Origin: a virus
Taxonomy: Duplodnaviria; Heunggongvirae; Uroviricota; Caudoviricetes
Reading direction: 5' to 3' (one strand)
IMG/VR virus record: IMGVR_UViG_2913192161_000003
Location: 1 to 38,083 of that record
Length of the DNA stretch: 38,083 nt
Below, one piece after another: positions 6,338 through 29,424 of this stretch; position 1 is the stretch's first letter; each line of letters begins with the position of its first letter. The notes under the pieces were generated by a model. That model saw only the letters and a program-made list of their open reading frames with translations, made no database searches and was not told where the DNA came from. The translations under genes and the position numbers were made by a program.

Positions 6338-6799
6338 CTTTATGGCTTCCTCCATTTTCTGAACTGCCTCTCTGGCGTCGAGCGTGAGCATCATCGGCGC
6401 CCTTATAACATCTCCCATATCTCACCTCTCTGTCGTTACCCGCTGATGCGGGAGAAATGCTTTGGTGCTGACTCCCCACAAGGAAGCAGGGAAGGCCGTC
6501 GTCGCCTTGGTGAGCCATTAACTCACCAACTAGCTGATAACCGTCTGCCAGCCCAAAACATTCCCTGTATTGGTCAGCGTCAACTCCCTGCCAGTGTTGC
6601 CCGTTCTCACGCCGTTCTCGCTCTCGCGCGGGGATATTCTCTCACCGACCGGATCGCACCCGGTGATACAGCACGTTTACGTGTAGGGGTCTTAACCGGT
6701 CATTGACGCTGTAAATCTGCATGTTGTTAAAAAGCAGGCGACTTGCTGTCCGCCGCTGGCTAACTTCGCTCAGCTGTCGATGTTTCGTTTCGATAGGCT

Positions 6800-6905
6800 A
6801 ATAATAGCTATGGCGATTATCGTAGTCAATCGCTTAAACGATATTAATGATAGGTAAGGCGATAAATGTGTGATTGATATGGCGATTTTTAATTAAAATT
6901 ATTTA
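6800..6905. promoter_or_regulatory. Operator-like repeat cluster (OL-like) and putative promoter upstream of the 6943 gene
   Basis: Three same-orientation GGCGAT half-sites (about 6811, 6857, 6882) and a near-palindrome ATCGCTTAAACGAT (about 6828-6841), matching the half-site of the OR palindromes at 8057-8097; TTGATA (6874-6879) as a possible -35. Confidence 0.45.
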
Positions 6906-6942
6906 CGTGGTAATCTGTTTTTTTCGGTGAAGGAGTGAATAA

Positions 6943-7317
6943 ATGGAACTTCAAGAGTGGGTTGATAGGTTGCGGTGGCTGAGCCATGAACAGATCGTTC
7001 AAGTTCATTTCGGGCTTCAGGAAGAGATTAAGAAATATTACAAACTGAGGGATGAAGCTAATAATCTTGCGCGCGCTGAGCATCTGTGTGAGCAAATGAT
7101 TGCTCTTTCAGAATTGGCATTTCCGGCGCTGAAGAGGGCTCATGATAAAAGAGTAGAAGAATATGAGTCGTTAACTGGCAACAAGTACCCGAGCGAATTC
7201 TATCCGCCATCACACTATGGATTTTCTCAGTTAGTGGTGATCTTGAAGAAAAGAAAGGATTACAAGCGGATTGAAGAACTTCGTGAAAAGATGATTAAAG
7301 AGGGGTGGAGGTGCTAA
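6943..7317 (+). CDS. Hypothetical helical protein (124 aa), AT-rich cargo gene convergent on cI
   Basis: Strong RBS GAAGGAG upstream of ATG; lower GC than flanks; sits where rexAB lie in lambda but on the opposite strand; followed by hairpin GCCCGG-TAA-CCGGGC (7318-7332). Confidence 0.6.
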   Translation: MELQEWVDRLRWLSHEQIVQVHFGLQEEIKKYYKLRDEANNLARAEHLCEQMIALSELAFPALKRAHDKRVEEYESLTGNKYPSEFYPPSHYGFSQLVVILKKRKDYKRIEELREKMIKEGWRC

Positions 7318-7331
7318 GCCCGGTAACCGGG

Positions 7332-8024
7332 CTATGCGAATCTTTTATAATCTATCGACTGTCGTAAAAGCACTCTTGCCATTACATAGAACTGGTCTTC
7401 ATCACCAGGCTCAACATACCACTTCTCGTAAATAGGGTTATCAGAGATTACAGCCAGGCGGTCACGCTGCATCTGAAGTCGCTTGACGTGTAATGTTTTA
7501 CCAAAAGCAAAGACATAAACGCCATCACTGTCGAATGCAGTGACGCCGATATCAACAAAGATTTGGTCTCCCGGAGAAATTGTTCCATCCATGCTGTCAC
7601 CGCTAACTGTGATGACCTTTATATTTTCAGCTGGGCGGTTACCGAACAGAGAGCGCGCTTGCTCAGATGTGTATTCAATAGCTCTAATGGTTTCAATGAA
7701 ATCGCTGGTAACTAAGGCACCCGGGCCCGCACTGGCTTTAACGTCGAGAACATCCACGCGATAGATCCCACTGTTTGGCTTTCTAACCTTGTATAGTGTA
7801 GGGGATTCATTTGCGCTACCGGCAAACATTTCACCTTCGCCAGTAGACAGCCATTCCGGACGCACACCGAGAACCGATGCAATTTCTACAGTTTTGCGTG
7901 AGCTGCTCGCACCATTCAATAGCTTATTAACGCTGGATTGCGCCATCCCTACAGCTTTTGCGAGCCTGCCCTGCGTATATCCTGCGGAAGACATCGCATG
8001 CGCTAAGCGCTCAGAGAATTCCAT
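7332..8024 (-). CDS. cI: CI-like prophage repressor (HTH + S24 LexA-like peptidase domain)
   Basis: N-terminal HTH (QGRLAKAVGMAQSSVNKLL), C-terminal S24 motifs (SGDSM serine, downstream lysine); divergent from the Cro-like gene; start taken at ATG 8024 (track begins on GTG 8030). Confidence 0.85.
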   Translation of the reverse strand: MEFSERLAHAMSSAGYTQGRLAKAVGMAQSSVNKLLNGASSSRKTVEIASVLGVRPEWLSTGEGEMFAGSANESPTLYKVRKPNSGIYRVDVLDVKASAGPGALVTSDFIETIRAIEYTSEQARSLFGNRPAENIKVITVSGDSMDGTISPGDQIFVDIGVTAFDSDGVYVFAFGKTLHVKRLQMQRDRLAVISDNPIYEKWYVEPGDEDQFYVMARVLLRQSIDYKRFA

Positions 8025-8056
8025 ACACACCCCTTAAAAACACTTTCTTTAATCCT

Positions 8057-8097
8057 ATCGCCTATGCGATTATTTAGCAAAAAATCGCATAGGCGAT
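8057..8097. promoter_or_regulatory. OR-like operators: two 14-bp palindromes ATCGC-N4-GCGAT
   Basis: ATCGCCTATGCGAT (8057-8070) and ATCGCATAGGCGAT (8084-8097), 27 bp centre to centre, in the cI/cro divergent intergenic region. Confidence 0.6.
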
Positions 8098-8125
8098 TGA
8101 CATTCGCCAGGGTGATAATCATAAT
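8097..8125 (+). promoter_or_regulatory. Putative PR promoter for the Cro-like gene
   Basis: -35 TTGACA (8097-8102), 17-bp spacer, -10 CATAAT (8120-8125); the -35 abuts the second operator. Confidence 0.55.
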
Positions 8126-8152
8126 CGCTTAAAATTGATAGTTGAGGTGATT

Positions 8153-8383
8153 ATGAAAAACCCCGCAGTAGAAAAGGCGATTGCCATTGCTGGCAGCCAG
8201 AAAGAGCTGGCGAAACGTTGTGGGAAGGCCCAATCAACGATCTGTGACTGGCTGAATGGCAAGAAGCGAATTTCGCCAGTCCATGTGCTCGACCTTGTTA
8301 ATGCGGTTGATGGGGAGATTAAGGCTTACGAGTTTCGTCCAGATCTCCCAGCAATTTTTCCGCATCCGGGCTCCATCGCCTGA
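8153..8383 (+). CDS. cro: Cro-like HTH regulator
   Basis: ORF 8135..8383; start taken at ATG 8153 (MKNPAVEKAI) after GAGGTG RBS; HTH segment (QKELAKRCGKAQSTICDWLNGKK). Confidence 0.7.
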   Translation: MKNPAVEKAIAIAGSQKELAKRCGKAQSTICDWLNGKKRISPVHVLDLVNAVDGEIKAYEFRPDLPAIFPHPGSIA

Positions 8384-8481
8384 GCCGCGCAACAGCTCAC
8401 CGCTCTTTAACAATCTGGAACCCTATTAAACCGGCTGAGTAATCAGCCAATTATTAACTATTCAACGATAGAGATAGCGAT

Positions 8482-9024
8482 ATGCAATCACTTACGTATC
8501 AACAGAGTACCGGAATACACAGCAGCGTGCTGATAAATCGCGCTCAACCGGAACCGGACAATAATCATGAGTTGATCCGCGCGGCGGTTCGCGGCTGGTC
8601 AGCTGCTATCGACAATCAGGACGTGGTGTCAGCGCTCATCATCAACGAATATCGGGAGCAGGGCGGGACTGCTATCAGCTTCCCGGAAGACATCAGCCGG
8701 GCGCGCCAGAAGCTCTTTCGCTTCCTGGATAACCGCTTCGACTCCGAGCAGTACCGAGAAAACGTGCGGAAACTGACTCCAGCAATCATGGCTGTTCTGC
8801 CGCTGGAATATCGGGAAAAGTTGATGCCGGAAGATAGCCTAATGGCTCGTCTGGTACGCATGGAGAAGGAAACCAGCGAAGCGAAAATTGCCGTCGCAAT
8901 GGATGCGCCACGGCATCAGAAGCTGAAAGAACTGAGCGAGGGGATTGTGGAGATGTACCGCGTTGACCCTGGCTTAACCGGTCCGCTGATGGAAATGGTT
9001 CAAATGATGTTGGGGGTTGTATGA
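8482..9024 (+). CDS. CII-like phage regulatory protein (CP76-like), tentative
   Basis: 180-aa ORF between cro and the replication genes; family by recall and position only. Confidence 0.45.
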   Translation: MQSLTYQQSTGIHSSVLINRAQPEPDNNHELIRAAVRGWSAAIDNQDVVSALIINEYREQGGTAISFPEDISRARQKLFRFLDNRFDSEQYRENVRKLTPAIMAVLPLEYREKLMPEDSLMARLVRMEKETSEAKIAVAMDAPRHQKLKELSEGIVEMYRVDPGLTGPLMEMVQMMLGVV

Positions 9025-9109
9025 CGGTTTCAAAAATGGCGAAAGCCGCTCTGCGCGAACAGAAGCGGCCTTCAGGTGGAATTAACTGGATCAATTCACA
9101 AGAGTAATT

Positions 9110-10111
9110 ATGACAAATATCGCCAGAGTATTCAACTTCCCGGCGCCTGAGCCGGGATACTTCCGGAGCAACAGAATGGAGAACAAAAAGTTCGGCCATT
9201 TCTCTCTGTTCAGAAGTCTCCTTCAAACAGATTGGGCTAAAGATACCGCAAAAATGGCTCTCTGGGTTCGATTGCTGGGAGAGGCTTCCTACCGCGTCAG
9301 AACAGTTGAATTTGCCAATAAGCAATGGGAGCTATCAAATGGTCAACTAGTCACTACAGCGGCCATTCTGGCAAGAAAACTTCGTGATCAGGACGGGAAA
9401 GAAAAGAGTCCACAAGCAGTAACCAGAATGCTTAATTTCTTCATCAAAGAGGGGATGATAAGCACTGAAGGAAACCGGTTTGGAACAGTGATAACCATCA
9501 CAAATTACGCCTCGTATCAGGTCGCTTTACCCGATGAACCTTCCGATGAACCTTCCGACAAAGGAAAAGGCAGTAATGGCGCGGGTTTGAGGTTGGTAGC
9601 CGATGAACCATCCGATAAACCAACCGATGAACAGAACAAGACATTAACTAACAATAATAAAAACAATAAGACCTCTACGTCCGAGAATTCTGACGAATCC
9701 TCTGACAAGCTTGGAAAGAAACCTCCTGTCTTGAAACCTGAAGCGGCAATTCAGAGCGGCACAAAGTGGGGTAACTCAGAAGACCTTCGCTGTGCAGAGT
9801 GGCTCTTCGATGTCGTGCAAAGCATCTCTTCGTCTGCCAGAAAACCGAACTATGCAGCATGGACCAATGATATTCGCCTGATGCGAGAGCGTGACCAGAG
9901 AACTCACAAGGAGATCGCCACACTGTTCAAGTGGGCCTGTGAAGACAAATTCTGGAAGGGAAACGTGCTTTGCCCTTCAACACTGCGTGAGAAGTGGACG
10001 CAGCTCGATATCCAGCGCACGAAACAAATCACTGGTGAAACCAGAACGACAGGTAACAAGCCAGAACTCGACTTCAACAACACTGACTGGGCCTATGAGG
10101 TTATGCGATGA
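9110..10111 (+). CDS. O: Replication initiator (lambda O-like)
   Basis: 333 aa; internal acidic linker encoded by the iteron repeats; immediately followed by, and ATGA-coupled to, the P-like gene. Confidence 0.7.
   Translation: MTNIARVFNFPAPEPGYFRSNRMENKKFGHFSLFRSLLQTDWAKDTAKMALWVRLLGEASYRVRTVEFANKQWELSNGQLVTTAAILARKLRDQDGKEKSPQAVTRMLNFFIKEGMISTEGNRFGTVITITNYASYQVALPDEPSDEPSDKGKGSNGAGLRLVADEPSDKPTDEQNKTLTNNNKNNKTSTSENSDESSDKLGKKPPVLKPEAAIQSGTKWGNSEDLRCAEWLFDVVQSISSSARKPNYAAWTNDIRLMRERDQRTHKEIATLFKWACEDKFWKGNVLCPSTLREKWTQLDIQRTKQITGETRTTGNKPELDFNNTDWAYEVMR
9531..9670. repeat. Putative origin of replication: five 12-bp iterons plus AT-rich tract inside the O-like gene
   Basis: CCGATGAACCTT x2 (9531-9554), CCGATGAACCAT, CCGATAAACCAA, CCGATGAACAGA (9600-9635), then AT-rich 9636-9670. 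Confidence 0.6.
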
Positions 10112-10797
10112 AATCTTTTGCAGAGCAGTTACGTAACCACGACCGTGAGCAGATGAGCCGCATAGCCCATAACCTGCCAGAGCAGTACCAGGAGCGCGCG
10201 CCGGTTGAGCAGGTGGCTCTGGTATTCAACGGACTGTTAAACCAGCTGCGTGCCGCGTTTCCGGCCAGCATGGCTAACTTCCGCACCCAGGACGACCTGA
10301 ACGAATTCCGCCGTCAGTGGCTGCTGGCGTTTCAGGAGAATGGGATCCACTCAATGACCCAGGTTGATGCCGGTATGCGTATAGCACGCCGCCAGGAGCG
10401 CCCATTTCTGCCGTCGCCGGGCCAGTTCGTCGCTTGGTGCAAGCAGAGTGGCGGGGTACTGGGTATCACCATTGAACAGGTGATCACCGAATACTGGGAC
10501 TGGCGTAACCGTTCGTTCGAATTCACCTCCAGCGAGCAATTCCCCTGGTCACAGCCGGTCATGTACCACATCTGCCTCGAACTTCGCCACCGCAGCACAG
10601 AGCGCCAGTTAACGCATGGTGAGCTGGCGCGTGAGGCCGGTGTCCTGCTGGACATGTGGGAGAAGCGTGTCTGTGATGGTAAGCCAGTGCCGCCTGTGCG
10701 TCGGGCAATTGCCGCACCAGTTGCCGATCGAGGACCGACGCCTATCCAACTGCTGCAGGCGAAGTACAACCGCAACAAGTCGAGCGGAATGGTGTGA
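10108..10797 (+). CDS. P: Replication protein P (lambda P-like helicase loader)
   Basis: Collinear similarity to lambda P recalled from memory (FxREQMxRIAxNxPEQY, RPFLPSPGQFVAWC). Confidence 0.85.
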   Translation: MKSFAEQLRNHDREQMSRIAHNLPEQYQERAPVEQVALVFNGLLNQLRAAFPASMANFRTQDDLNEFRRQWLLAFQENGIHSMTQVDAGMRIARRQERPFLPSPGQFVAWCKQSGGVLGITIEQVITEYWDWRNRSFEFTSSEQFPWSQPVMYHICLELRHRSTERQLTHGELAREAGVLLDMWEKRVCDGKPVPPVRRAIAAPVADRGPTPIQLLQAKYNRNKSSGMV

Positions 10798-10798
10798 G

Positions 10799-11092
10799 AT
10801 GACTGGTAAGCAGGCAATTCTTAACTACCTAAAGACGCATAAAAATTTTTGTGCGCCTGATGTATCAGCAGCCAGCGGAACAACGATGACCAGCATCAAT
10901 CAGGCTGCAAACATCATGTTTCATGACGGAGTAATTGTCCCTGAAGGAAGGGTATGGAGAACGGTGTATTACCGATACTCCACAGAAGCGGAACGTGAAG
11001 GCCTCGTTAGTACCAACGGGATATTTCAGGAATGCAAGAACTCGGCAGCAATGCAGCGTGTACTGGCGTTTTACGGGAGAACATCAGCGTGA
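10799..11092 (+). CDS. Hypothetical protein (97 aa)
   Basis: ORF 10616..11092 overlaps P; start taken at ATG 10799 just after the P stop (MTGKQAILNYLK...). Confidence 0.45.
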   Translation: MTGKQAILNYLKTHKNFCAPDVSAASGTTMTSINQAANIMFHDGVIVPEGRVWRTVYYRYSTEAEREGLVSTNGIFQECKNSAAMQRVLAFYGRTSA

Positions 11093-11247
11093 AACCAACT
11101 TATCAAGAACTGGAACTGCAACTTGCCGAGTCACATAGCGAGTTCCGGGCAGCAGACGCGACTATTCACAATCTGGAACTGAAACTCACCGATATGGCAG
11201 TACATCTCGCTAACGCCGAGAGCAAGTGCAGGGAGCTGGCGGCGTAG
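11089..11247 (+). CDS. Small coiled-coil protein (52 aa), tentative
   Basis: GTG start overlapping the upstream stop; helical sequence. Confidence 0.3.
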   Translation: MKPTYQELELQLAESHSEFRAADATIHNLELKLTDMAVHLANAESKCRELAA

Positions 11248-11271
11248 AATGTAACCGACGATGAGCGAATT

Positions 11272-11394
11272 ATGGCTATAGAGGGTATTCATAACTGCGA
11301 ACAGTGCGGTGATGAATTTTTTGAAACACAGAGCCGCAGTGTCACCGACTGGATGCCGCTGCCAGAACCGCCGAAGGAGGTTAACCGTGGCTAA
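11272..11394 (+). CDS. Small CxxC protein (40 aa), tentative
   Basis: Hand-translated MAIEGIHNCEQCGDEFF...; stop overlaps the next GTG start. Confidence 0.25.
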   Translation: MAIEGIHNCEQCGDEFFETQSRSVTDWMPLPEPPKEVNRG

Positions 11395-11668
11395 CCTGCA
11401 ACTTGCAGTCAAAGGTGAATACTTCGATGCCATGATTCGCGGAGAGAAAACGGAAGAGTATCGCCTTGTTAATGACTACTGGAAAAAGCGCCTCTTTAAC
11501 CGCGAGTATGACCGTCTGATCATCACAAAAGGATATCCGAAGCGCGATGATTCCAGTCGTAGAATTGACGTCCCGTATGGCGGATATGAAATCAAGGTAA
11601 TAACACATCCGCACTTCGGCCCTGATCCGGTTAAAGTTTTTGCTATAAAGGTGAGCATTAATACTTAA
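11387..11668 (+). CDS. Hypothetical protein, possibly ASCH-like
   Basis: ORF 11309..11668; start taken at GTG 11387 after GGAGG RBS; the KGEYFDAMIRGEKTEEYR segment resembles ASCH-domain N-termini (weak). Confidence 0.4.
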   Translation: MANLQLAVKGEYFDAMIRGEKTEEYRLVNDYWKKRLFNREYDRLIITKGYPKRDDSSRRIDVPYGGYEIKVITHPHFGPDPVKVFAIKVSINT

Positions 11669-11717
11669 ACCATTTTAAACTCAGTCTCGATCCGGTTTAC
11701 CTAAAGCAGGAGAGTTA

Positions 11718-11990
11718 ATGATGGAAAAGGTGAAGGTTTTTACACGAGAACATTTCAGTGACTATATGGATGCTGAATATATTTATTCTACCCGGCAGGG
11801 GAGGAATGGGCCGGTAGCAAATCATCAAATCACTATAGAAAAGAGTGAGCTAAGTGATGGCCTTTTCCTGGGCATGCCCTACAAGATGGCCATAAGCTTG
11901 AACGTGGTTGGGGCCGAAGATGGGTATAGAGATTATTATTTTGTCCACGATACAGCCGATGGGTATGTTTTTCAGACCAACCCCGGATAA
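11718..11990 (+). CDS. Hypothetical protein (90 aa)
   Basis: AGGAGA RBS upstream of ATG. Confidence 0.5.
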   Translation: MMEKVKVFTREHFSDYMDAEYIYSTRQGRNGPVANHQITIEKSELSDGLFLGMPYKMAISLNVVGAEDGYRDYYFVHDTADGYVFQTNPG

Positions 11991-12167
11991 TTGATTTTCT
12001 GAAATCAACCAGCCATAATCGCGTCATCGGAGCCTGAACAACTTCGATGACTTCTGCGCATTTAAGGGGACTTAAATGCGACCACAATCTGAACTCTTCA
12101 CCTTGTCACAGATGCAGAAATGCACCTGCGATTTTCTGCATTCTGCGTTACCTCCCGGAGGTGGCGT

Positions 12168-12617
12168 GTGAAGCAACAATTCCACCTCATGAACGACGCC
12201 ATCAAGCAGAACGCTATCAACTACATCCGCCAGTTGCCGGTGGATGCCAGACGACCACTGATTCTCGACATCAAGGAGATGACGCGCACGCTGGATCAGA
12301 ATCGCAAGATGTGGCCGTTACTGAAAGACCTCTCTGACCAGGTAACCTGGTTCGGCAATAAGTACGACCCTGACGACTGGAAAGACCTGATCACCGCGAT
12401 GGTCGCCAAGGCCAAAAAGCAAGAGCAGAGGATGGCACCTGGTCTCGACGGCGGCGTTGTGATGTTCGGTCAGCGTACAAGCAAGATGACCGTTCGGCAG
12501 ATGGTTGAAGTCATTGAGGCTATCTACTGGTTCGGTACGCAGCAGAGCGTGAAGTTCAGCGAGAAATCCCGCCTCGAAATCGAATGGGCGAAACAGTGGG
12601 GTGAGAAGCATGGCTAA
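12168..12617 (+). CDS. ninB: NinB recombination protein
   Basis: Strong similarity to lambda NinB recalled from memory (LDQNRKMW, VIGQRTSxM, LEIEWAKQWG); start taken at GTG 12168 after GGAGGTG. Confidence 0.8.
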   Translation: MKQQFHLMNDAIKQNAINYIRQLPVDARRPLILDIKEMTRTLDQNRKMWPLLKDLSDQVTWFGNKYDPDDWKDLITAMVAKAKKQEQRMAPGLDGGVVMFGQRTSKMTVRQMVEVIEAIYWFGTQQSVKFSEKSRLEIEWAKQWGEKHG

Positions 12618-12780
12618 CCTCATCAATCGCGTCATGAATGGAGGCATCTACAAAGTACCGGCGCACAGCAAGCGTAAGCCGGAACTGAGCCCATCAGAAA
12701 TACCCACTCTCAAAGATTACACATCCCGCCTAGTGGATCAGAAATGGCTGCGTCTCGCGGCACGGAGGCAGCATGGCTAA
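12610..12780 (+). CDS. Small basic protein, possibly NinE-like
   Basis: 56 aa hand-translated; C-terminus WLRLAARRQ resembles the lambda NinE C-terminus; overlaps the ninB stop. Confidence 0.35.
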   Translation: MANLINRVMNGGIYKVPAHSKRKPELSPSEIPTLKDYTSRLVDQKWLRLAARRQHG

Positions 12781-13063
12781 TTTGTGCAAAGCAGCACGCG
12801 GGCGCGAATGCCAGGTGCGGATCCCTGGGATATGCAACGGAAACTCTGAAACTTCGGTGCTGGCACATATCCGTATAGCTGGTCTATGCGGTACCGGAAT
12901 CAAGCCGCCTGACCTGATCGCCACCATCGCATGTAGCAGCTGCCACGACGAGATTGATCGCCGTACGCGTCTTGTCGATGCGGAATATGCGAAGGAGTGC
13001 GCGCTGGAAGGCATGGCACGCACGCAGGTTATTTGGCTGAAAGAGGGGCTCGTGAAGATATGA
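12773..13063 (+). CDS. YbcO-like protein (DUF1364, putative nuclease)
   Basis: 96 aa cysteine-rich; resembles DLP12 YbcO (recall) and holds the same nin-region position before rusA. Confidence 0.6.
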   Translation: MANLCKAARGRECQVRIPGICNGNSETSVLAHIRIAGLCGTGIKPPDLIATIACSSCHDEIDRRTRLVDAEYAKECALEGMARTQVIWLKEGLVKI

Positions 13064-13419
13064 ATATTTACGATATTACTCCTGTCAGCAAACCTCGCAT
13101 GACTCAACGGGACAGATGGGTAAAACGTCCGGGAACAGCAGCGTATTGGGCTTTTAAAGCCGAAGTACGCCTGCTAGGGATCTGCCTGCCTGAATCCGGT
13201 TATCACGTCACCTTCATCATTCCCATGCCAAAAAGCTGGAGCCAGAAGAAGCGGGCACAACTGAATGGCCATGCTCATCAGCAGAAACCGGATAAAGACA
13301 ACTTGGAAAAGGCGTTACTCGATGCCATTTTCGACGACGACAGCCGCGTCTGGGATGGCCGGGTGACAAAGCTCTGGGGAGAGAAAGGGCAGATCATTAT
13401 TGGGGAGTGTGCGCCGTGA
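13060..13419 (+). CDS. rusA: RusA-family Holliday junction resolvase
   Basis: ORF 12997..13419; start at ATG 13060 overlapping the upstream stop; acidic motif KPDKDNLEKALLDAIFDDD resembles the RusA catalytic DxDN region. Confidence 0.65.
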   Translation: MNIYDITPVSKPRMTQRDRWVKRPGTAAYWAFKAEVRLLGICLPESGYHVTFIIPMPKSWSQKKRAQLNGHAHQQKPDKDNLEKALLDAIFDDDSRVWDGRVTKLWGEKGQIIIGECAP

Positions 13420-13526
13420 CCAGAGACGAGATAGCACGGTACCAGGCAGAAAGCGTTAAGCGCGCCAGCATGCCACCAATAGCAAAGCACACTAAAACCA
13501 GCCAACCACAGAAGGAAGCCGCTTAA
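13416..13526 (+). CDS. Small hypothetical protein (36 aa)
   Basis: GTG start overlapping the rusA stop; stop overlaps the Q start. Confidence 0.25.
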   Translation: MTRDEIARYQAESVKRASMPPIAKHTKTSQPQKEAA

Positions 13527-14215
13527 TGAACACTCAATACCTCGAATACGTTCGCCAGCAGCTGATTGTGGCCACGGCAGATATGAGCGGAGCAACGAAA
13601 GGTCAACTGGTAGCATTCGCCGAGAACGCGATGTTTACAGCCACTCTACGCAGCCGGGGCAGGATGAAGGTGGTCAACCCGGTGAACGGGCGTTTAATGA
13701 ATCCCAATAACCCGCCGATCCCCGGCCAGCAGTCACGCGCGAAAGGCTCCCACATTCCACTGGTCAACCCGGTGGAGTTCTCTACAGCATCATGGCGCCG
13801 CGCGGTACTGTCGTTGGACGAACACCAGAGGGCGTGGCTGCTATGGAGCTACAGCGAGAACGTGCGCTTCGAATATCAGGTGGCGATAACCCAGTGGGCG
13901 TGGGCAGAGTTCCTGGAGCAGCTCGTCGCGAAGAAGATGGCTGGCAAGACGATGGAGCGCCTGAAGAAGCTTATCTGGCTGGCGGCGCAGGACGTCAAAG
14001 CGGAGTTGGCGGGTAAGGATGCCTACGAATACCAGGCGCTGGCAGAACTTGCTGGCGTGGCGAAATCCACTTGGACAGAAACCTATCTTCCTCACTGGCT
14101 GGCAATGCGCAACAGCTTTAAGCGGCTCGATAGCGGCTCGCTTATGGCCGTAACGCGATCACGATCACAACAAAAGTCGACAAATTATCAGCAAGATATT
14201 GCAAAACCGAACTGA
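13526..14215 (+). CDS. Late-gene antiterminator Q-like protein
   Basis: 229 aa at the end of the nin region, immediately upstream of tandem intrinsic terminators and the lysis cassette; family by position and recall. Confidence 0.6.
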   Translation: MNTQYLEYVRQQLIVATADMSGATKGQLVAFAENAMFTATLRSRGRMKVVNPVNGRLMNPNNPPIPGQQSRAKGSHIPLVNPVEFSTASWRRAVLSLDEHQRAWLLWSYSENVRFEYQVAITQWAWAEFLEQLVAKKMAGKTMERLKKLIWLAAQDVKAELAGKDAYEYQALAELAGVAKSTWTETYLPHWLAMRNSFKRLDSGSLMAVTRSRSQQKSTNYQQDIAKPN

Positions 14216-14219
14216 AACG

Positions 14220-14283
14220 CTTATATTTCATGTAAATCTGATATCGTCGCCATAGCTTTGGTTGTCGACCGAATTACAAAAAT
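14220..14283 (+). promoter_or_regulatory. Putative late promoter / Q-utilisation region
   Basis: Positional inference only (between the Q stop and the first terminator); exact -35/-10 not resolved. Confidence 0.3.
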
Positions 14284-14311
14284 AGCCCCAGTTAATCGCT
14301 GGGGCTTTTTC
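14284..14311 (+). terminator. Rho-independent terminator (tR-prime-like)
   Basis: Stem AGCCCC/GGGGCT with 11-nt loop followed by TTTTT. Confidence 0.7.
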
Positions 14312-14369
14312 GTATCTGGATACCTACCAGGACCATAAGAGCGAAAGCTCAACGCACCACCCTCATCTT

Positions 14370-14396
14370 GCCCACTGCGCCGTGGGCTCTTTATTC
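14370..14396 (+). terminator. Second rho-independent terminator
   Basis: Stem GCCCAC/GTGGGC, 6-nt loop, followed by TCTTTATT. Confidence 0.55.
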
Positions 14397-14470
14397 AGGC
14401 CGCCGACAATCACCTTCATATGCCACGTAGCTATCGTGTCGGACGGCCTACCTCTATACACGGAATAACT

Positions 14471-14869
14471 ATGTCTGAGCCAATCACAATTGCCAGTGGG
14501 GTGACCTCCGCTACGGTAGGGATCACTTTCGCTACGATGTTCCCGGAGGCGACGCCTGGCGTAATGTTATGTGCGCTGGCCGGGGCGGCAATGTATGTGC
14601 TGACCTCAGAGCCTCATCAACTCTGGAAGCAGATGCTCTTCGCGGTCATCTCGTTCATGGGCGGCGTGTTCTTCTCCGTTCCCATGGCCAAGATTCTCGC
14701 CGGGGTTATTAACACAGCTCTCGGGCTGTTGCAGCCGCCGGTCAGTATCGAAGTTTCACCGAATGTCGGTGCACTGGTATCCGCTTCCATTTCCGTCGCA
14801 GTCCTGCTTCGAATCGTCGCCAAGTCACGGCGCGGAAAGATGCCTGGACTGGAGGAGGAAGGGAAATGA
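14471..14869 (+). CDS. Putative holin (multi-TM membrane protein)
   Basis: ORF 14420..14869; start taken at MSEPIT (14471); several hydrophobic segments and a charged C-terminus; first gene of the lysis cassette. Confidence 0.5.
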   Translation: MSEPITIASGVTSATVGITFATMFPEATPGVMLCALAGAAMYVLTSEPHQLWKQMLFAVISFMGGVFFSVPMAKILAGVINTALGLLQPPVSIEVSPNVGALVSASISVAVLLRIVAKSRRGKMPGLEEEGK

Positions 14870-15141
14870 CATGGCATTCCGTCATCCTGGATGCAAACGC
14901 GATCATCTGTATGGCGATCGTGATGCGTCTGATGTTCTTCAGTAAAGCCGGGAAGACACACCGACCCGGTTACGCGTGGATGGCTTACCTGCTTATTCTG
15001 GCTGCAGGCTTCACCGCTTTCCGTATTCTCCTCGGCCACTACAGCAACGTTGATCCGGGTGAGTTATTTCTCAATCTGGCAATCTGTATTGCTGTCTGGC
15101 GAGCCAAAGGCAATCTGGCGAAAGTCGTAAGGGCTGAATGA
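14866..15141 (+). CDS. Second lysis-cassette membrane protein (holin/antiholin-like)
   Basis: 91 aa with two or three hydrophobic helices; coupled between the holin and endolysin genes. Confidence 0.5.
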   Translation: MTWHSVILDANAIICMAIVMRLMFFSKAGKTHRPGYAWMAYLLILAAGFTAFRILLGHYSNVDPGELFLNLAICIAVWRAKGNLAKVVRAE

Positions 15142-15683
15142 TGACCAAAGACGATATCTTCAACAGCATCCTCGGCAAAGAAGGTGGCTACGTTAATCAC
15201 CCGAACGACAAAGGCGGTCCCACGAACTGGGGAATTACTCAGGCAACGGCACGCGCACATGGCTATACCGGTGATATGCGTAATCTGACGCGCCAGCAAG
15301 CCCTGGAAATCCTTGAGGCTGATTACTGGTATGGCCCACGCTTCGACCAGGTTGCTGCTGTATCACCGGATATTGCCGCCGAACTCTGTGACACCGGAGT
15401 GAACATGGGGCCATCAGTGCAGGTGAAATGGTTCCAGCGTTGGCTGAACGTATTCAACAACCAGCAGCAACTCTATCCCGACCTGATTGCCGATGGCCAG
15501 ATAGGTCCGCGCAGCATCAGCGCCTTGAAGTCCTTCCTGGCGAAACGCGGAAGTGAAGGGGAGGAGGTATTGCTCCGATCACTGAACTGCAGCCAGGGTC
15601 AGCGTTATCTCGAACTGGCAGAACAGCGCCCGGCTAATGAGTCGTTCGTTTATGGCTGGGTGCGGGAGCGTGTAAGCCTATGA
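15138..15683 (+). CDS. Endolysin: GH108 N-acetylmuramidase with PG-binding domain
   Basis: N-terminal GH108 signature (GKEGGYVNHPNDKGGPTNWGIT) plus a C-terminal PG_binding_3-like region. Confidence 0.85.
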   Translation: MMTKDDIFNSILGKEGGYVNHPNDKGGPTNWGITQATARAHGYTGDMRNLTRQQALEILEADYWYGPRFDQVAAVSPDIAAELCDTGVNMGPSVQVKWFQRWLNVFNNQQQLYPDLIADGQIGPRSISALKSFLAKRGSEGEEVLLRSLNCSQGQRYLELAEQRPANESFVYGWVRERVSL

Positions 15684-15952
15684 CGAAACTGAAAGCCATA
15701 CTGGCGTTTATCGCCGCTGCTGCACTGATGGTGCTCGCAGCGTTCGGCTTGGGTAGCATGCGTGGCCGCGAGAAAGCCGAAGCAAAAGCTGATAAGCAGC
15801 ATACCGATGATAACGCCGCAGCCACCAAAGCAGCCGCAGACCGCCGCGTCGAAGTAACCAAAGAGGCCAGCAATGTACAGCAGACTGTTAGCCATATGCC
15901 TGATGACGACGTTGATCGTGAGCTGCGCTCAAACTGGACCCGCAAAGGTTGA
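15680..15952 (+). CDS. i-spanin (Rz-like)
   Basis: N-terminal TM helix followed by a charged periplasmic domain, directly after the endolysin. Confidence 0.55.
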   Translation: MTKLKAILAFIAAAALMVLAAFGLGSMRGREKAEAKADKQHTDDNAAATKAAADRRVEVTKEASNVQQTVSHMPDDDVDRELRSNWTRKG

Positions 15953-16109
15953 GTTAATCGACACTGGCTGTGACTGGGTGAGGCCAATTTATCTCACGGA
16001 AAACGATATCACCGTCATGGACAAGCAGACGAAGCGCGATGTGCTGGTGCATAACCGAGCGTGGAAATCTAATTGTTCGGTTCGAAATTCACAATCTGAT
16101 CGCCTATAG
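15873..16109 (+). CDS. o-spanin (Rz1-like lipoprotein), overlapping the i-spanin in another frame
   Basis: Signal peptide with lipobox-like IVSC (MYSRLLAICLMTTLIVSCAQ); starts inside the i-spanin gene. Confidence 0.5.
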   Translation: MYSRLLAICLMTTLIVSCAQTGPAKVELIDTGCDWVRPIYLTENDITVMDKQTKRDVLVHNRAWKSNCSVRNSQSDRL

Positions 16110-16581
16110 CTAGGGCTAGCTCAAAGAAACGTATGCATTCATCAATTGCTTCTTTATCAAAACCATTAGTATTGACATACGATCCTTCTTTGAAGTCCTG
16201 AGCCAAAGCTTGAAGTATTTGATGGTATTGGACTAATAACTTCGTTCTTTCTACACCCAGTAAACCAACCTTATTCAGGTTAGCATTATAAAACCTGGAG
16301 AAGTTGTCAGGTATCAAGATCGTGTAATAAACCTTTTCTCCAGCTAGGACTTCTGGGTGGTTAGCCATGGAGGTGAATGCCTCTAAATATTTCCTTTCCC
16401 TCATGACTTTTTGCAGTGACTCAACTTCCGCAACAAAGCCAGCAGCAAATGATAGTTTTTCAATGTCGTGATTACCACGACTGATTCGGTAGTTCACCCA
16501 TCCAGAGATACTTGCGCCTATGCATGCACCTATTAGGCCTGAGCATGCTGCGATTAATTGATTAATTGTGGTGATTTCCAT
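16069..16581 (-). CDS. Opposite-strand cargo gene: membrane-anchored protein of unknown function (170 aa)
   Basis: Only minus-strand gene in the plus-strand late block; AT-rich compared with flanks; N-terminal TM helix (INQLIAACSGLIGACIGASISGWV) plus about 140-aa soluble domain; lies where bor lies in lambda but is unrelated to Bor in sequence. Confidence 0.6.
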   Translation of the reverse strand: MEITTINQLIAACSGLIGACIGASISGWVNYRISRGNHDIEKLSFAAGFVAEVESLQKVMRERKYLEAFTSMANHPEVLAGEKVYYTILIPDNFSRFYNANLNKVGLLGVERTKLLVQYHQILQALAQDFKEGSYVNTNGFDKEAIDECIRFFELALAIGDQIVNFEPNN

Positions 16582-16662
16582 TACGACCCAACCTTCAGCT
16601 TTGTGATGAAGAACATACTATTTCATCAGTTAATAACAGAATTGCAAGTTTAAGGAGTACGC

Positions 16663-17271
16663 ATGGCATCGAAAAAGCTCACGGCAGAGCAGCAACTTCT
16701 TTTCGATGCGCTGACTCCGCTTCAGAAACAATTCTCACTGGCCATCATCAAAGGTAAGAACCAGACCGACGCATACAAGGCAGCGAAGGGGAAAGCGAGG
16801 GGCGACGCTATTCGAGCGGCAGCATCAAGAATGTATGCAAATGTTAACGTCGTAGCGTTTCTCAAATTGGTTCAGGGAGAGGTGGTAGACGAGGCCATTA
16901 TGGGGCGAGAGGAGGCACTCAAACGCCTGACCTCCCTCGGGCGCGCATCACTATTTGATCTGGCTGAGTTCCGCAACGGAATGATTGGTGAGGATGAGAA
17001 CGGCGATCCGATAATGCAGGCATCATGGAGCTTCAAAGATTCTGCACTGCTGACGCCTGAAGCAATGGCCGCTATCGCTGAGCTTACCGCTGGCCCTCAA
17101 GGCCTGAAGATTAAGCTCCACGACCCCAAAGCCGCAATTAAGCAATTGGCCGAGTTACAGGGGTGGGAGGCCGCCAAGGTGGTGGATAACGTTTCCTCTG
17201 ATGGCAGCATGTCACCAAAGCCGACCACCATCCGTTTAGTTGGAGTTTCGCCTGATGGGAGCAACAGCTGA
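16663..17271 (+). CDS. Terminase small subunit
   Basis: N-terminus typical of Terminase_2-type TerS (LTPLQKQF, NQTDAYKAA); directly upstream of the large subunit. Confidence 0.75.
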   Translation: MASKKLTAEQQLLFDALTPLQKQFSLAIIKGKNQTDAYKAAKGKARGDAIRAAASRMYANVNVVAFLKLVQGEVVDEAIMGREEALKRLTSLGRASLFDLAEFRNGMIGEDENGDPIMQASWSFKDSALLTPEAMAAIAELTAGPQGLKIKLHDPKAAIKQLAELQGWEAAKVVDNVSSDGSMSPKPTTIRLVGVSPDGSNS

Positions 17272-27810: not shown

Positions 27811-28263
27811 GTGGCTGAATTACTGGAAGCGAAAAACGTCACGGTGAAAGACCGGGCCGGTAACGATGTACCGTTTATCATCGGTAAGTTTCCTGCCATT
27901 GCAGCGCGGGAGATTGCCGCGAAGTATCCAACCTCGATTGCGGCACTGGCGAAGCAGTGGGAAGAGAACCAGTACGCTGAGAGTGAGAAGATCATGCTCA
28001 AGGCGATGACGTTCGTTGATCGCGTACTGGATGACGGCTCAACCATTCGCCTGACCACTGCGGCTCTGGTTGATAACCATGTGCCGGACGGCGAAGCGTT
28101 GATGCGTCTTGAGAAAGAGTTGCTCGAGTATAACTTCTCTTTTTTCGAAAAGTTCACCCGCTCCATTTCCTCCGGCGGTATCGTGCAGAATATGATCAAG
28201 TTGATTACGTCAACGCTGACCAGTTCATTGCAACAATCCTCTCGGCAGGACAAGCAACCCTGA
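27811..28263 (+). CDS. Tail assembly chaperone (G-like), with -1 frameshift extension to 28379
   Basis: GTG start; slippery heptamer T_TTT_TTC at 28140-28146; the -1 frame is open from 28146 to the TGA at 28377-28379 (checked codon by codon). Confidence 0.6.
   Translation: MAELLEAKNVTVKDRAGNDVPFIIGKFPAIAAREIAAKYPTSIAALAKQWEENQYAESEKIMLKAMTFVDRVLDDGSTIRLTTAALVDNHVPDGEALMRLEKELLEYNFSFFEKFTRSISSGGIVQNMIKLITSTLTSSLQQSSRQDKQP
28140..28146 (+). other. Putative -1 programmed ribosomal frameshift slippery site (U UUU UUC)
   Basis: X_XXY_YYZ heptamer in the zero frame of the chaperone gene; the conserved position between tube and tape measure genes supports a G/GT-type frameshift. Confidence 0.55.
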
Positions 28264-28432
28264 CAGAACTGAAGACCTCCGTCACGCTGGAGGAGGCCTT
28301 TAGCCTTTGGGAAATTGTCATGACTACACGGTTTAACGAGTGGTGGGCAATGGAGCAGATCAATAAAAAACGAAGTTGAGATCGAAAATTCATACCGCTT
28401 TCGCCGCCTGTGATATTTTTACGGAGATATCA

Positions 28433-28915
28433 ATGCCATTGGTGAGGATGGTCGTGAAATATTCTGACTTCAAAAAAATGCCGTACAGGCAGCGAAGAGA
28501 TTACATAAAAGGCGGCGGTAAAGTAGAGCGGACGTTAGGGCAAAAGGTTGTTTACTACGGGTCAACGATCTTTATTGTTCTGGTGGCTATCTCGTTTGTG
28601 AGGTCGTGCTCAAATCAGCCCAGAGATAACCAGTACATCTCTGACATGATGATCGCGATATGCACTACCGAAGTTAAAGAAAGAATCAAAGATCCAAGCA
28701 GCTTCGACGCTGACAGATCAAACACCATTACGACCAGCACTACTGACGGTTACAGTGTTGACATGGTGTTCCATGCTAAAAACTCTTTTGGTGCCACGGT
28801 TCCTGGTTCAGCAAAATGCACTTTCAGCAAGTTAGGTGAAGATAAAAAACCATTGCTGGAGTCCAAAGAGAAGGCAGTTATGACGTCGATATCTGTTAAC
28901 GGGAAGAGAGCATGA
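28433..28915 (+). CDS. Cargo gene 1: single-pass membrane protein of unknown function (161 aa)
   Basis: ORF 28376..28915 begins on TTG; ATG 28433 has a GGAG RBS; basic N-terminus, TM helix (VVYYGSTIFIVLVAISFV), about 100-aa C-terminal domain; AT-rich; possible sigma70 promoter TTCATA-17-GATATT at 28389-28417. Confidence 0.55.
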   Translation: MPLVRMVVKYSDFKKMPYRQRRDYIKGGGKVERTLGQKVVYYGSTIFIVLVAISFVRSCSNQPRDNQYISDMMIAICTTEVKERIKDPSSFDADRSNTITTSTTDGYSVDMVFHAKNSFGATVPGSAKCTFSKLGEDKKPLLESKEKAVMTSISVNGKRA

Positions 28916-29424
28916 TGGATGAGATTATTTCTGACTTGGTAGAAAAACACGGCATAGATAGTTCTCTCGCCGCCCAAATAGCTAACGATTTTCTGGAAAT
29001 GGATTTTGATAAGTTTCAAGTTGAAATGTCAGAGCTTGAACTCGCGGTCCTTAAGTCTTGGGGTGGGTCTCAAGAGTTATCGGCACTTTTAATCGAGAGA
29101 TATTCAGGAATAAACGCTAAGAAAGTTGGATTTATTGCAGCTAGATTTTGCTGCAAATATGTATCCTACGCAAACATTAATAAGTTATTAAAGGCTGGCG
29201 TCAAGAGTGGGGAATGGATTTATGGTGGTGCCGTGTGTGAGCATGCGGAGTTGGCATCGAAAAAATTCAATCTTTCTGAGGGCGCTAACTTTAACGGAAT
29301 TAATATCTTCCCAGGAAGGGAGTGGGATTGCCGTTGTTCGTCTAAACCCATAATCGACTTCTTCGACGAAGAGGAGAAAGTTCCGCCCAAAAAAGGCTTC
29401 TTCGCTAAGTTGTTTGGTAAATAG
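28912..29424 (+). CDS. Cargo gene 2: protein with a MuF-like C-terminal region (170 aa)
   Basis: ATGA-coupled to cargo gene 1; C-terminal segment FPGREWDCRCS resembles the C-terminus of the head morphogenesis protein in this window (IPGEEINCRCT); AT-rich. Confidence 0.55.
   Translation: MMDEIISDLVEKHGIDSSLAAQIANDFLEMDFDKFQVEMSELELAVLKSWGGSQELSALLIERYSGINAKKVGFIAARFCCKYVSYANINKLLKAGVKSGEWIYGGAVCEHAELASKKFNLSEGANFNGINIFPGREWDCRCSSKPIIDFFDEEEKVPPKKGFFAKLFGK

What the first reader, a model, noticed from the sequence alone, without database searches (positions are those of the whole stretch)
16069..16581. Opposite-strand AT-rich membrane-anchored gene at the bor-equivalent position
This is the only minus-strand gene within about 24 kb of plus-strand late genes. 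It has visibly lower GC than its neighbours, sits in a divergent promoter region shared with the terminase operon, and overlaps the 3-prime end of the o-spanin gene convergently. In lambda this position holds bor, a lysogen-expressed cargo gene, but this 170-aa protein (N-terminal TM helix plus cytoplasmic or periplasmic domain) shows no resemblance to Bor. A single-gene membrane-anchored protein at a known cargo hotspot is a plausible abortive-infection or exclusion factor.
Basis: partly seen in the sequence, partly recalled or inferred. Interest (0 to 1): 0.7.

Follow-up and report, generated by a model that had tools for sequence, protein, structure and literature searches.

The report
Unnamed membrane-anchored prophage cargo gene
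A real, strongly conserved but completely unannotated gene for a small inner-membrane protein sits backwards between a prophage's lysis and DNA-packaging genes, where lambda carries bor; its context suggests an anti-phage protection gene, but this is untested.

Summary
ORF 16069-16581 (minus strand, 170 aa) is real: GC is 0.405 against about 0.55 in its neighbours, dN/dS is 0.04-0.11, and it is the only supported minus-strand gene between the CI repressor and 37.3 kb. It is a 589-bp cargo module (16065-16653). E. coli relatives with the same flanks carry other inserts in this slot.

The protein has one N-terminal, glycine-rich TM helix and a cytoplasmic helical-bundle domain. In 83 of 84 relatives, lysine and arginine cluster after the TM helix.

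It matches no Pfam, PHROG, NCBIfam or PADLOC family, no solved or viral structure, and not Bor or SieA. A profile search finds 476 related clusters of similar size.

In about 15 non-redundant Enterobacterales prophage loci the gene is always antisense between the lysis cassette and the terminase, whatever the endolysin or terminase type. Distant relatives sit between Gabija and PDC-S18, beside DarT-NADAR, in an integron cassette, and in an ICE-like region.

Best reading (confidence 0.4): a lysogen-expressed, stand-alone anti-phage gene acting at the inner membrane. This is circumstantial; no expression or phenotype data exist. The claimed divergent promoter shared with the terminase operon is not supported. 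It is a good candidate for experiment, not a surprise.

The parts
16065..16653 (.). 589-bp cargo module: the low-GC segment absent from E. coli prophages that share both flanks.
   Evidence: Homology to L033 ends at 16064 and resumes at 16654; homology to L034 ends at 16075 and to L035 at 16064. The module is 98.6% identical to L001, while the flanking terS is 70.7% and the endolysin 86.1% identical. GC is 0.38-0.42 against about 0.55 in the flanks.
16069..16581 (-). Coding sequence of the 170-aa protein (stop codon TAG at 16069-16071). It is identical to WP_130257736.1 from Escherichia sp. E10V10, annotated 'hypothetical protein'.
   Evidence: ORF list; exact look-up; 23 homologue clusters; dN/dS 0.04-0.11.
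16498..16569 (-). Codons for residues 5-28, the single N-terminal TM helix. It is rich in small residues (S14/G15, G18, G22, S26/G27), a glycine-zipper-like pattern.
   Evidence: Kyte-Doolittle maximum 1.78. G18 and G22 are invariant in the family. 73 of 84 superfamily members have a segment of at least 1.6, with on average 7.6 G/A/S residues in the 19-residue core.
16072..16497 (-). Codons for residues 29-170, the predicted cytoplasmic helical-bundle domain. R63 is invariant and E52, Y65 and D129 are near-invariant across the superfamily. R96-F97-Y98, N101, K104, Y119-H120-Q121, Q124 and Q128 are invariant in the close family.
   Evidence: AF2 model with pLDDT 84.3 and pTM 0.71, all-helical. 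A distant subfamily gives the same helix order, with domain pLDDT above 90. Conservation; charge bias.
16582..16653 (-). 72-bp upstream part of the module. It holds a Shine-Dalgarno-like GAAGG at 16592-16596 and a -10-like TAGTAT at 16615-16620. There is no good -35 element.
   Evidence: Sequence read directly. The tool scan finds no canonical sigma-70 promoter. A -10-like hexamer lies 20-50 nt upstream of the ATG in 11 of 12 family loci, against 7.05 +/- 1.6 expected (P about 0.015).
15873..16109 (+). o-spanin ORF with lipobox IVSC. Its last 13-15 codons (about 16065-16109) are encoded by the cargo module, antisense to the 3' end of the target gene.
   Evidence: The o-spanin is conserved up to '...AW(K/Q)xNC' and then has a different short tail in every relative. 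This makes the overlap a by-product of the junction.
15680..15952 (+). i-spanin ORF, the end of the lysis cassette and the left boundary context.
   Evidence: ORF list; 92% identical counterparts flank homologues in L022/L023.
16663..17271 (+). terS (Terminase_2), the right boundary. Homology to gene-less relatives resumes 9 nt before its ATG.
   Evidence: Pfam E = 2.7e-11; breakpoints.
14231..14307 (+). Late-operon leader and terminator: an isrJ-like RNA with a bidirectional hairpin at 14284-14306. This is the first intrinsic terminator a minus-strand transcript from the target gene would meet.
   Evidence: Rfam isrJ, 47.2 bits against a gathering score of 37, E = 9.4e-07. Terminator scan on both strands.

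Best explanation
The 589-bp segment is a moron-type cargo module in a lambdoid prophage of Escherichia sp. E10V10. It sits in the same slot, and in the same convergent orientation, as bor in lambda.

It encodes a single-pass inner-membrane protein. About four N-terminal residues face the periplasm. A TM helix rich in small residues follows. The remaining roughly 140 residues form a helical bundle in the cytoplasm.

I propose that it is expressed from its own weak promoter in the lysogen and protects the lysogen against other phages as a stand-alone gene. The most likely mechanism has three steps:
1. The cytoplasmic bundle, which carries about a dozen invariant polar residues, recognises a phage-derived cue.
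2. The glycine-zipper-like TM helices then associate.
3. This compromises the inner membrane, giving abortive infection. A less likely variant is that the protein blocks an inner-membrane step of genome entry.

**Shown:** gene reality and purifying selection, module boundaries, variable occupancy of the slot, architecture and topology, family size, and the genomic contexts.

**Inferred:** expression in lysogens, the anti-phage role, oligomerisation and membrane permeabilisation.
For: **1. Mobile cargo, not core phage.**
- GC is 0.405 against 0.55 in the neighbours.
- Breakpoints against gene-less relatives are sharp, and those relatives hold other inserts.
- The module is 98.6% identical to L001 while the flanking terS is 70.7% identical.

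**2. Selected function.** dN/dS is 0.04-0.11.

**3. Orientation and position.**
- The gene is opposite to the Q-dependent late operon in every Enterobacterales locus examined: 28 retrieved, about 15 non-redundant.
- It always lies between the lysis cassette and the terminase.
- This holds across GH108, GH19 and Phage_lysozyme endolysins and across Terminase_3, GpA and TerL_ATPase terminases.
- This is the pattern expected of a lysogen-expressed moron such as bor.

**4. Hint of its own promoter.** -10-like hexamers are enriched upstream (P about 0.015).

**5. Distant homologues keep defence or mobile company.**
- Idiomarina (two species): between Gabija (GajA E = 1.9e-269, GajB E = 9.7e-201) and PDC-S18 (E = 5.7e-129), in an island whose downstream genes vary.
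- Vibrio plasmids: after DarT and a NADAR antitoxin (E = 2.4e-87).
- Gammaproteobacterium UBA7310: first cassette next to an integron-type integrase, followed by an attC-like hairpin (z = -5.6).
- Moraxellaceae: an ICE-like region with Mrr and a reverse transcriptase.
- Ewingella prophage: the same slot also holds a PD-T4-6-like kinase.

**6. Stand-alone gene.** No neighbour is conserved across these contexts.

**7. Architecture suits a membrane effector.** There is a single TM rich in G/A/S and a cytoplasmic domain, with K+R more frequent after the TM than before it in 83 of 84 members. Small TM-containing single genes are a documented class of validated defence genes (bioRxiv 10.1101/2024.07.02.601719).
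Against: - There is no sequence match to any PADLOC, Pfam, PHROG or NCBIfam family.
- No canonical sigma-70 promoter and no terminator of its own were found, so expression in lysogens is unproven.
- Several distant contexts are not defence-like: an LPS locus in Hydrogenophilales, a position between leuC and leuD, and a Marinobacter contig of unknown small genes.
- The context sample is small and has no matched control, so the 'defence island' association is anecdotal.
- None of 50,697 deposited phage genomes encodes a homologue.
- The strict adjacency to lysis genes could mean a lysis-related role instead.
Confidence: 0.4

Rival explanations
1. The protein is a lysis-module accessory. It would be a membrane protein that modulates lysis, for example by restraining holin triggering, protecting the lysogen from leaky lysis-gene expression, or setting lysis timing. 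A variant is that its transcript acts as an antisense RNA across the lysis cassette.
For: - In about 15 non-redundant Enterobacterales loci the gene is next to the lysis cassette.
- In most of them its 3' end lies within -80 to +185 nt of the spanin end.
- A more distant member (L043) is again convergent with an endolysin/RzoQ module in a different kind of prophage.
- The protein shares the inner membrane with holins.
- No minus-strand intrinsic terminator lies between its stop codon and 14306, so a transcript could run antisense through the spanin, endolysin and holin genes.
Against: - It is on the opposite strand from the late operon, so it is not co-expressed with the lysis genes.
- It accompanies unrelated holin, endolysin and spanin types.
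- Close relatives with the same two holins, endolysin and spanins lack it.
- In Ewingella other cargo separates it from the spanin.
- Distant homologues occur with no phage genes nearby.
- No match to any lysis-category PHROG or Pfam family was found.
- The o-spanin overlap is a by-product of the junction.
Confidence: 0.15
2. The protein is a lysogenic-conversion or fitness factor for the host that has nothing to do with phages. It would be a functional analogue of Bor, affecting envelope stress, serum resistance, colonisation or metabolism.
For: - It has the same slot and orientation as bor, which confers serum resistance (record annotation).
- Another conversion-type cargo, an Acyl_transf_3 gene with GC 0.30, lies at 37310-38083 in the same prophage.
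- Two distant copies sit beside LPS-core genes.
Against: - The protein exposes almost nothing outside the inner membrane: about four periplasmic residues and a cytoplasmic domain. Surface phenotypes such as serum resistance are therefore unlikely.
- There is no homology to Bor.
- Homologues occur in free-living marine and sediment bacteria (Idiomarina, Marinobacter, Thiobacillus), which argues against a host-association role.
Confidence: 0.12
3. The protein is a selfish stabilisation or toxin-like membrane protein (an addiction module). Its expression would be kept in check by antisense late or lysis transcription or by an unrecognised partner.
For: - Copies occur in an integron cassette, among VapBC/PIN pairs inside a leu operon, and beside DarT-NADAR. 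Toxin-antitoxin genes typically occupy such niches.
- The convergent overlap with another gene resembles type I toxin-antitoxin layouts.
Against: - At 170 aa with a structured cytoplasmic domain, it is far larger than type I membrane toxins.
- No partner gene is conserved.
- The overlap partner, the o-spanin tail, varies and is incidental.
- Toxicity is untested.
Confidence: 0.08

Closest known systems
Lambda bor (Bor outer-membrane lipoprotein moron)
   Same: The genomic slot and geometry are the same: a single gene convergent with the end of Rz/Rz1, antisense to the late operon, between the lysis genes and the packaging end. It behaves as cargo.
   Different: There is no sequence relationship (hhalign probability 0.2%). 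Bor is a 97-aa lipoprotein with a signal peptide. This protein is 170 aa, has no basic n-region or lipobox, and is an N-out/C-in inner-membrane anchor with a cytoplasmic domain.
P22 SieA (prophage inner-membrane superinfection-exclusion protein; PMC10883804)
   Same: Both are prophage-encoded, opposite-strand, inner-membrane proteins of about 165 aa expressed independently of the late genes. SieA is a model for how such a protein could exclude phages.
   Different: SieA has three predicted TM segments and lies between genes 16 and 9 of P22-like phages. hhalign probability against this family is 0.5%. The superficial resemblance of SieA's motif FxRYPxEAxxFNK to FSRFYNANLNK did not align.
Csx28 (Cas13b accessory membrane pore; PDB 8gi1)
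TM-containing integron-cassette defence genes (BRiCs such as Deva/brcWGS21; bioRxiv 10.1101/2024.07.02.601719)
   Same: These are small single genes with TM helices and no recognisable domains, carried as mobile cassettes and experimentally shown to protect against phages. One distant homologue of this family is itself an integron cassette.
   Different: Homology could not be tested because no sequence was at hand. A tblastn search of 72,556 plasmids found no mobile-integron copy. Deva appears to be larger and multi-TM.

Membership tests
Moron (independent cargo unit in a prophage) | Inserted between genes that are adjacent in related phages. | tested here: met
   Breakpoints at 16064-16075 and 16654 against L033-L035. 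Those relatives carry other inserts in the slot.
Moron (independent cargo unit in a prophage) | Nucleotide composition differs from the surrounding phage genes. | tested here: met
   GC 0.405 and GC3 0.39, against 0.54-0.55 and 0.58-0.68 in the neighbours.
Moron (independent cargo unit in a prophage) | Own promoter and terminator. | tested here: inconclusive
   There is no canonical sigma-70 promoter or terminator. A -10-like hexamer is modestly enriched upstream across the family (P about 0.015).
Moron (independent cargo unit in a prophage) | Expressed from the repressed prophage. | not testable with these tools
   This needs RNA-seq, 5'-RACE or proteomics of a lysogen.
Bor family | Sequence homology to Bor; lipoprotein signal peptide with lipobox. 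| tested here: not met
   hhalign probability 0.2%. The N-terminus MEITT... has no basic n-region or lipobox.
SieA family | Sequence homology; three TM segments; located between genes 16 and 9 of P22-like phages. | tested here: not met
   hhalign probability 0.5%. The protein has a single TM and lies in the lysis-terminase slot.
Known anti-phage defence families (PADLOC-DB 2.0) | A significant HMM match. | tested here: not met
   The query matched no family at E up to 10. Across 84 superfamily members there was no consistent family.
Defence-island gene (guilt by association) | Recurrent neighbourhood with known defence systems, above background. | tested here: inconclusive
   Positive contexts are Gabija with PDC-S18, DarT-NADAR and a PD-T4-6-like kinase. 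Other contexts are neutral. The sample is about 9 distinct distant loci with no matched control.
Holin, antiholin, spanin or other lysis accessory | HMM match to a lysis family; co-transcription with the lysis cassette. | tested here: not met
   No Pfam or PHROG lysis family matched. The gene is on the opposite strand from the late operon.
Csx28-like HEPN membrane pore | N-terminal TM plus a helical cytoplasmic domain. | tested here: met
   AF2 models; topology statistics.
Csx28-like HEPN membrane pore | Specific fold or sequence similarity and an Rx4-6H motif. | tested here: not met
Csx28-like HEPN membrane pore | Homo-oligomeric pore and membrane depolarisation. | not testable with these tools
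   Only monomer prediction was available. This needs multimer modelling and experiment.
Integron gene cassette (applies to the distant copy in L038 only) | Adjacent integron-type integrase and a 3' attC hairpin with R''/R' boxes. | tested here: met
   Divergent recombinase with Phage_integrase (E = 3.5e-34) and Phage_int_SAM_4 (E = 1.2e-27) domains. The element at 8552-8672 has TTATAAC and GTTAAAT boxes; its bottom strand folds at -32 kcal/mol with z = -5.57. The window copy is not a cassette.

The most novel reading that the evidence does not exclude
This protein would be the prophage-borne branch of a new, previously unnamed family of stand-alone, membrane-anchored sensor-effector immunity proteins. 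The family has about 476 clusters at 50% identity. Its defining features are an N-out single TM with a glycine zipper and a cytoplasmic four-helix bundle with an E...RxY...D core. It travels between the bor slot of lambdoid prophages, defence islands, integron cassettes and ICEs. It would kill or arrest infected cells by self-assembling into a membrane lesion, working like Csx28 or a holin but without any partner system.
Probability: 0.25. Interest if true: 0.6.

Novelty: new member of a known kind. Interest (0 to 1): 0.45.

Why it matters
If the gene protects lysogens, it would add a compact (about 0.6 kb) single-gene defence family that current annotation and defence-finding tools miss entirely.

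It would also support treating the lysis-to-terminase junction of lambdoid prophages as a searchable defence and cargo hotspot. In the loci examined here that junction variously holds this gene, a PD-T4-6-like kinase pair, an S1 peptidase and other unknown genes.

The family's spread across prophages, an integron cassette and defence islands would be another example of the same immunity gene using several mobility routes.

If it is not a defence gene, the strict linkage to lysis cassettes would point to an unrecognised layer of lysis control. Either answer is reachable with simple experiments.

Tried and rejected
**Family libraries.** Pfam, PHROGs, PADLOC and NCBIfam scans of the protein and of 84 superfamily members gave no family.

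**Domain fusions.** Pfam and NCBIfam scans of longer superfamily members, looking for informative fused domains, found nothing.

**Structure.**
- The afdb50 library was unavailable.
- A PDB sequence-profile search gave only an insignificant HD-domain hit (E = 0.59).

**Named candidates tested and rejected.**
- P22 SieA.
- Lambda Bor.
- Lambda's other gap ORF, lambdap78.

**Literature leads rejected.**
- GiPD474 is an Avs2-like ATPase encoded in the immunity region.
- HepS is a soluble HEPN protein encoded elsewhere in Gifsy-1.
- Deva/BRiC homology could not be tested because no sequence was available.

**Two-gene system idea.** I tested this for the distant branch. The 273-aa and 289-aa upstream genes in Idiomarina and Vibrio are unrelated, and so are the downstream genes.

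**Functional spanin overlap.** Rejected, because the o-spanin tail differs in every relative.

**Cassette array on the Vibrio plasmid.** No repeated attC-like elements were found.

**Searches that failed or found nothing.**
- A2 was too divergent for pattern-based locus retrieval.
- The distant subfamily is absent from IMG/VR.
- The distant subfamily is present in only 4 of 100,044 species-representative genomes.
- No deposited phage genome and no complete E. coli genome carries the gene.

Full report
**Observation**

The ORF at 16069-16581 on the minus strand (ATG start, 170 aa) is present.
- Its GC content is 0.405 and its GC3 is 0.39.
- The endolysin, terS, terL and portal genes around it have GC 0.54-0.55 and GC3 0.58-0.68.
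- On one side lie a Q antiterminator, two holins and a GH108 endolysin, followed by i-spanin and o-spanin ORFs. On the other side lie terS, terL and portal. The two spanin ORFs have no Pfam match and are assigned by position and by the o-spanin lipobox.
- It overlaps the o-spanin ORF convergently by 41 nt.
- Between the CI-like repressor (7332-8030) and 37310 it is the only supported minus-strand gene. The one competing minus ORF (11131-11433) is a shadow of a plus-strand phrog_625 gene.
- The exact protein is on record as WP_130257736.1, a 'hypothetical protein' of Escherichia sp. E10V10.

**Is it a real gene?**

Yes. Twenty-three clusters of homologues, all 166-173 aa, occur in Citrobacter, Klebsiella, Enterobacter, Lelliottia, Edwardsiella, Serratia and Yersinia. 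Pairwise Nei-Gojobori estimates give dN/dS of 0.04-0.11. Synonymous sites are saturated while the proteins stay 55-99% identical.

**Module boundaries**

E. coli prophages share the same lysis cassette and, in one case, the same terminase, but lack the gene.
- Homology to them stops at 16064-16075 and resumes at 16654.
- The cargo module is therefore 16065-16653. It contains the ORF plus 72 bp upstream and nothing else.
- In those relatives the slot holds an S1 family peptidase with two small ORFs, or four small ORFs, or one small ORF.
- P22 has rha, orf25, orf80 and orf59c in this gap.
- Between the window and a Citrobacter relative (L001) the module is 98.6% identical, while terS is 70.7% and the endolysin 86.1% identical. 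The module has therefore been exchanged as a unit.
- The o-spanin is conserved up to '...AW(K/Q)xNC' and then carries a different short tail in every relative.

**Position across the family**

I retrieved 28 loci for the Enterobacterales branch, about 15 of them non-redundant and reaching down to 37% protein identity.
- In all of them the gene is antisense to the phage late genes and lies between the lysis cassette and the terminase.
- In most, its 3' end lies within -80 to +185 nt of the spanin end.
- This holds across GH108, GH19 and Phage_lysozyme endolysins, and across Terminase_3, GpA, TerL_ATPase and unassigned terminases.
- In a Ewingella prophage a PD-T4-6-like kinase and a PP2C phosphatase lie between it and the spanin.
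- Lambda has the same geometry for bor, which begins 31 nt after Rz ends.
- No genome among 50,697 deposited phages and no complete E. coli genome carries the gene.

**The protein**

*Architecture and topology*
- The N-terminus (MEITTINQLIAACSGLIGACIGASISGWV) is hydrophobic and rich in small residues, and has no basic n-region. It is therefore a membrane anchor rather than a signal peptide.
- Across 84 superfamily members, 73 have an N-terminal segment above the usual TM threshold.
- Only 7 of the 84 show a possible second TM segment.
- In 83 of 84, lysine and arginine are more frequent after the segment than before it (means 3.93 and 0.56).
- By the positive-inside rule the protein is N-out/C-in with a cytoplasmic domain.

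*Predicted structure*
- AlphaFold2 gives a confident all-helical model (pLDDT 84.3, pTM 0.71). One long helix runs from the TM into the domain and packs with further helices into a bundle.
- A distant subfamily gives the same order of helices, with domain pLDDT above 90.

*Conserved residues*
- Invariant or near-invariant polar residues are E52, R63, Y65 and D129 across the superfamily.
- In the close family R96, Y98, N101, K104, H120, Q121, Q124 and Q128 are also invariant.
- So many fixed polar residues in about 130 residues suggest a specific binding or catalytic surface. This is an inference.

**Comparison with what is known**

- No Pfam, PHROG, PADLOC or NCBIfam family matches the protein or its relatives.
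- Foldseek against PDB and BFVD finds nothing significant.
- Profile comparisons exclude Bor, lambdap78 and SieA.
- A profile search of 1.84 billion representatives finds 476 related clusters, nearly all 155-200 aa and matched end to end. This is a sizeable unnamed family.

**Contexts of distant relatives**

| Organism or locus | Context |
|---|---|
| Idiomarina (two species) | After GajA, GajB and a 273-aa unknown gene. PDC-S18 follows in one species and unrelated genes in the other, so the island is variable |
| Vibrio plasmids | After DarT, its NADAR antitoxin and an HNH-like gene |
| Gammaproteobacterium UBA7310 | First cassette beside an integron-type integrase, followed by an attC-like hairpin |
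| Moraxellaceae | Region with a T4SS coupling protein, Mrr and a reverse transcriptase |
| L043 (unknown taxon) | Prophage end, convergent with an endolysin/RzoQ module |
| Hydrogenophilales and Thiobacillus | Beside LPS-core genes |
| L017 (unknown taxon) | Between leuC and leuD, among PIN toxin-antitoxin pairs |
| Marinobacter | Among unknown small genes |

No neighbour is conserved between these contexts. The family behaves as a stand-alone accessory gene that uses several mobility routes, often in defence company. The sample is small and has no control.

**Expression signals**

- The tool scan finds no canonical sigma-70 promoter in the 72-bp upstream region and no terminator after the gene.
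- A -10-like hexamer (TAGTAT at 16615-16620 in the window) lies 20-50 nt upstream of the ATG in 11 of 12 family loci, against 7.05 +/- 1.6 expected from shuffles (P about 0.015). This is suggestive only.
- The first minus-strand intrinsic terminator downstream is the bidirectional hairpin at 14284-14306. It coincides with an Rfam isrJ match and, by position, is the late-operon leader and terminator.
terS is most simply read through from the Q-dependent late promoter.

**Interpretation**

*Best explanation (0.4).* The gene is a lysogen-expressed, stand-alone anti-phage gene. Its product is anchored in the inner membrane, senses a phage cue with its cytoplasmic bundle, and acts through association of its glycine-zipper-like TM helix. 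That action would either damage the membrane (abortive infection) or, less likely, block an inner-membrane step of genome entry.

*Rivals.*
- Modulator of the adjacent lysis module (0.15).
- Bor-like host fitness factor (0.12). This is disfavoured because almost nothing is exposed outside the inner membrane.
- Toxin or addiction-like element (0.08).
- The remaining probability is for functions not yet imagined.

**Verdict**

The defence interpretation is plausible and somewhat strengthened, but unproven. The family is unnamed and unannotated, yet the kind of thing it is, a single-gene moron at a known prophage hotspot, is well known. It is a worthwhile experimental candidate rather than a surprise.

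Noticed in passing
window 37310-38083 (minus strand): A 257-aa ORF with the lowest GC in the window (about 0.30) lies directly after the tail-fibre assembly gene (36703-37125). It matches Pfam Acyl_transf_3 (E = 2.9e-10), so it is probably an O-antigen or surface-sugar acyltransferase acting as lysogenic-conversion cargo. Its ATG is the last base of the window.
   Followed up: partly
window 14231-14307: An Rfam isrJ (Hfq-binding sRNA) match above the gathering score (47.2 bits against 37, E = 9.4e-07) overlaps a bidirectional terminator hairpin at 14284-14306. It lies between Q and the first holin. By position it is the short leader and terminator of the Q-dependent late promoter, which suggests that 'isrJ' is a prophage late-leader RNA.
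   Followed up: partly
window 16065-16109: The last 13-15 codons of the o-spanin are supplied by the cargo module. Every relative has a different short tail after the conserved '...NC'. The spanin C-terminus evidently tolerates arbitrary extensions created by cargo exchange.
   Followed up: yes
window 6601-7211, 11261-11671, 28181-29111, 34731-35741: Four further low-GC patches (0.40-0.44) exist. They include a phrog_22434 gene next to the repressor (6943-7317), a phrog_625 gene in the nin region (11309-11668), and an unknown 179-aa ORF among the tail and virion genes (28376-28915). These may be other cargo or mosaic segments.
   Followed up: partly
L018 (Ewingella americana plasmid pB61a) 9767-11271: A protein kinase (PADLOC PD-T4-6 E = 1e-26, mad6 E = 4e-31) and a PP2C phosphatase sit in the same lysis-terminase gap of a prophage carried on a 331-kb plasmid, next to a homologue of the target. 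A 485-aa 'glycosyltransferase' recurs on the terminase side in L010, L018, L020 and L021.
   Followed up: partly
L005/L006 (Yersinia kristensenii prophage) 10546-14537: Between the Q antiterminator and the holins, on the strand opposite the late genes, lies a cluster that includes an Mrr_cat nuclease, a HATPase_c protein and a 139-aa unknown. This is a second antisense cargo hotspot in the same prophage that carries a target homologue.
   Followed up: no
L038 (Gammaproteobacteria UBA7310) 6496-8672: A distant homologue is the first cassette of an integron. There is a divergent integrase with the SAM_4 N-terminal domain. The attC-like element has TTATAAC and GTTAAAT boxes, and its bottom strand folds at -32 kcal/mol (z = -5.6).
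   Followed up: yes
L017 (metagenome contig) 6595-9127: A 171-aa homologue is wedged between leuC and leuD with overlapping start and stop codons. The genome in this region has several VapBC/PIN and Phd-PIN pairs inserted among housekeeping operons.
   Followed up: no
L014 and L039 (Idiomarina) 7139-7960: A 273-aa protein with no Pfam or PADLOC match is conserved (92% identity) between Gabija and the target homologue in two Idiomarina species. It may be another uncharacterised defence-island gene.
   Followed up: partly
L001 (Citrobacter relative of the window prophage) 14730-15714: The nin/replication-side region of the closest relative carries a 138-aa protein with a weak HEPN hit and a dATP/dGTP pyrophosphohydrolase. 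This recalls the HepS-type solo HEPN defence described in Gifsy-1 (PMC13043305). I did not check whether the window has the same genes.
   Followed up: no
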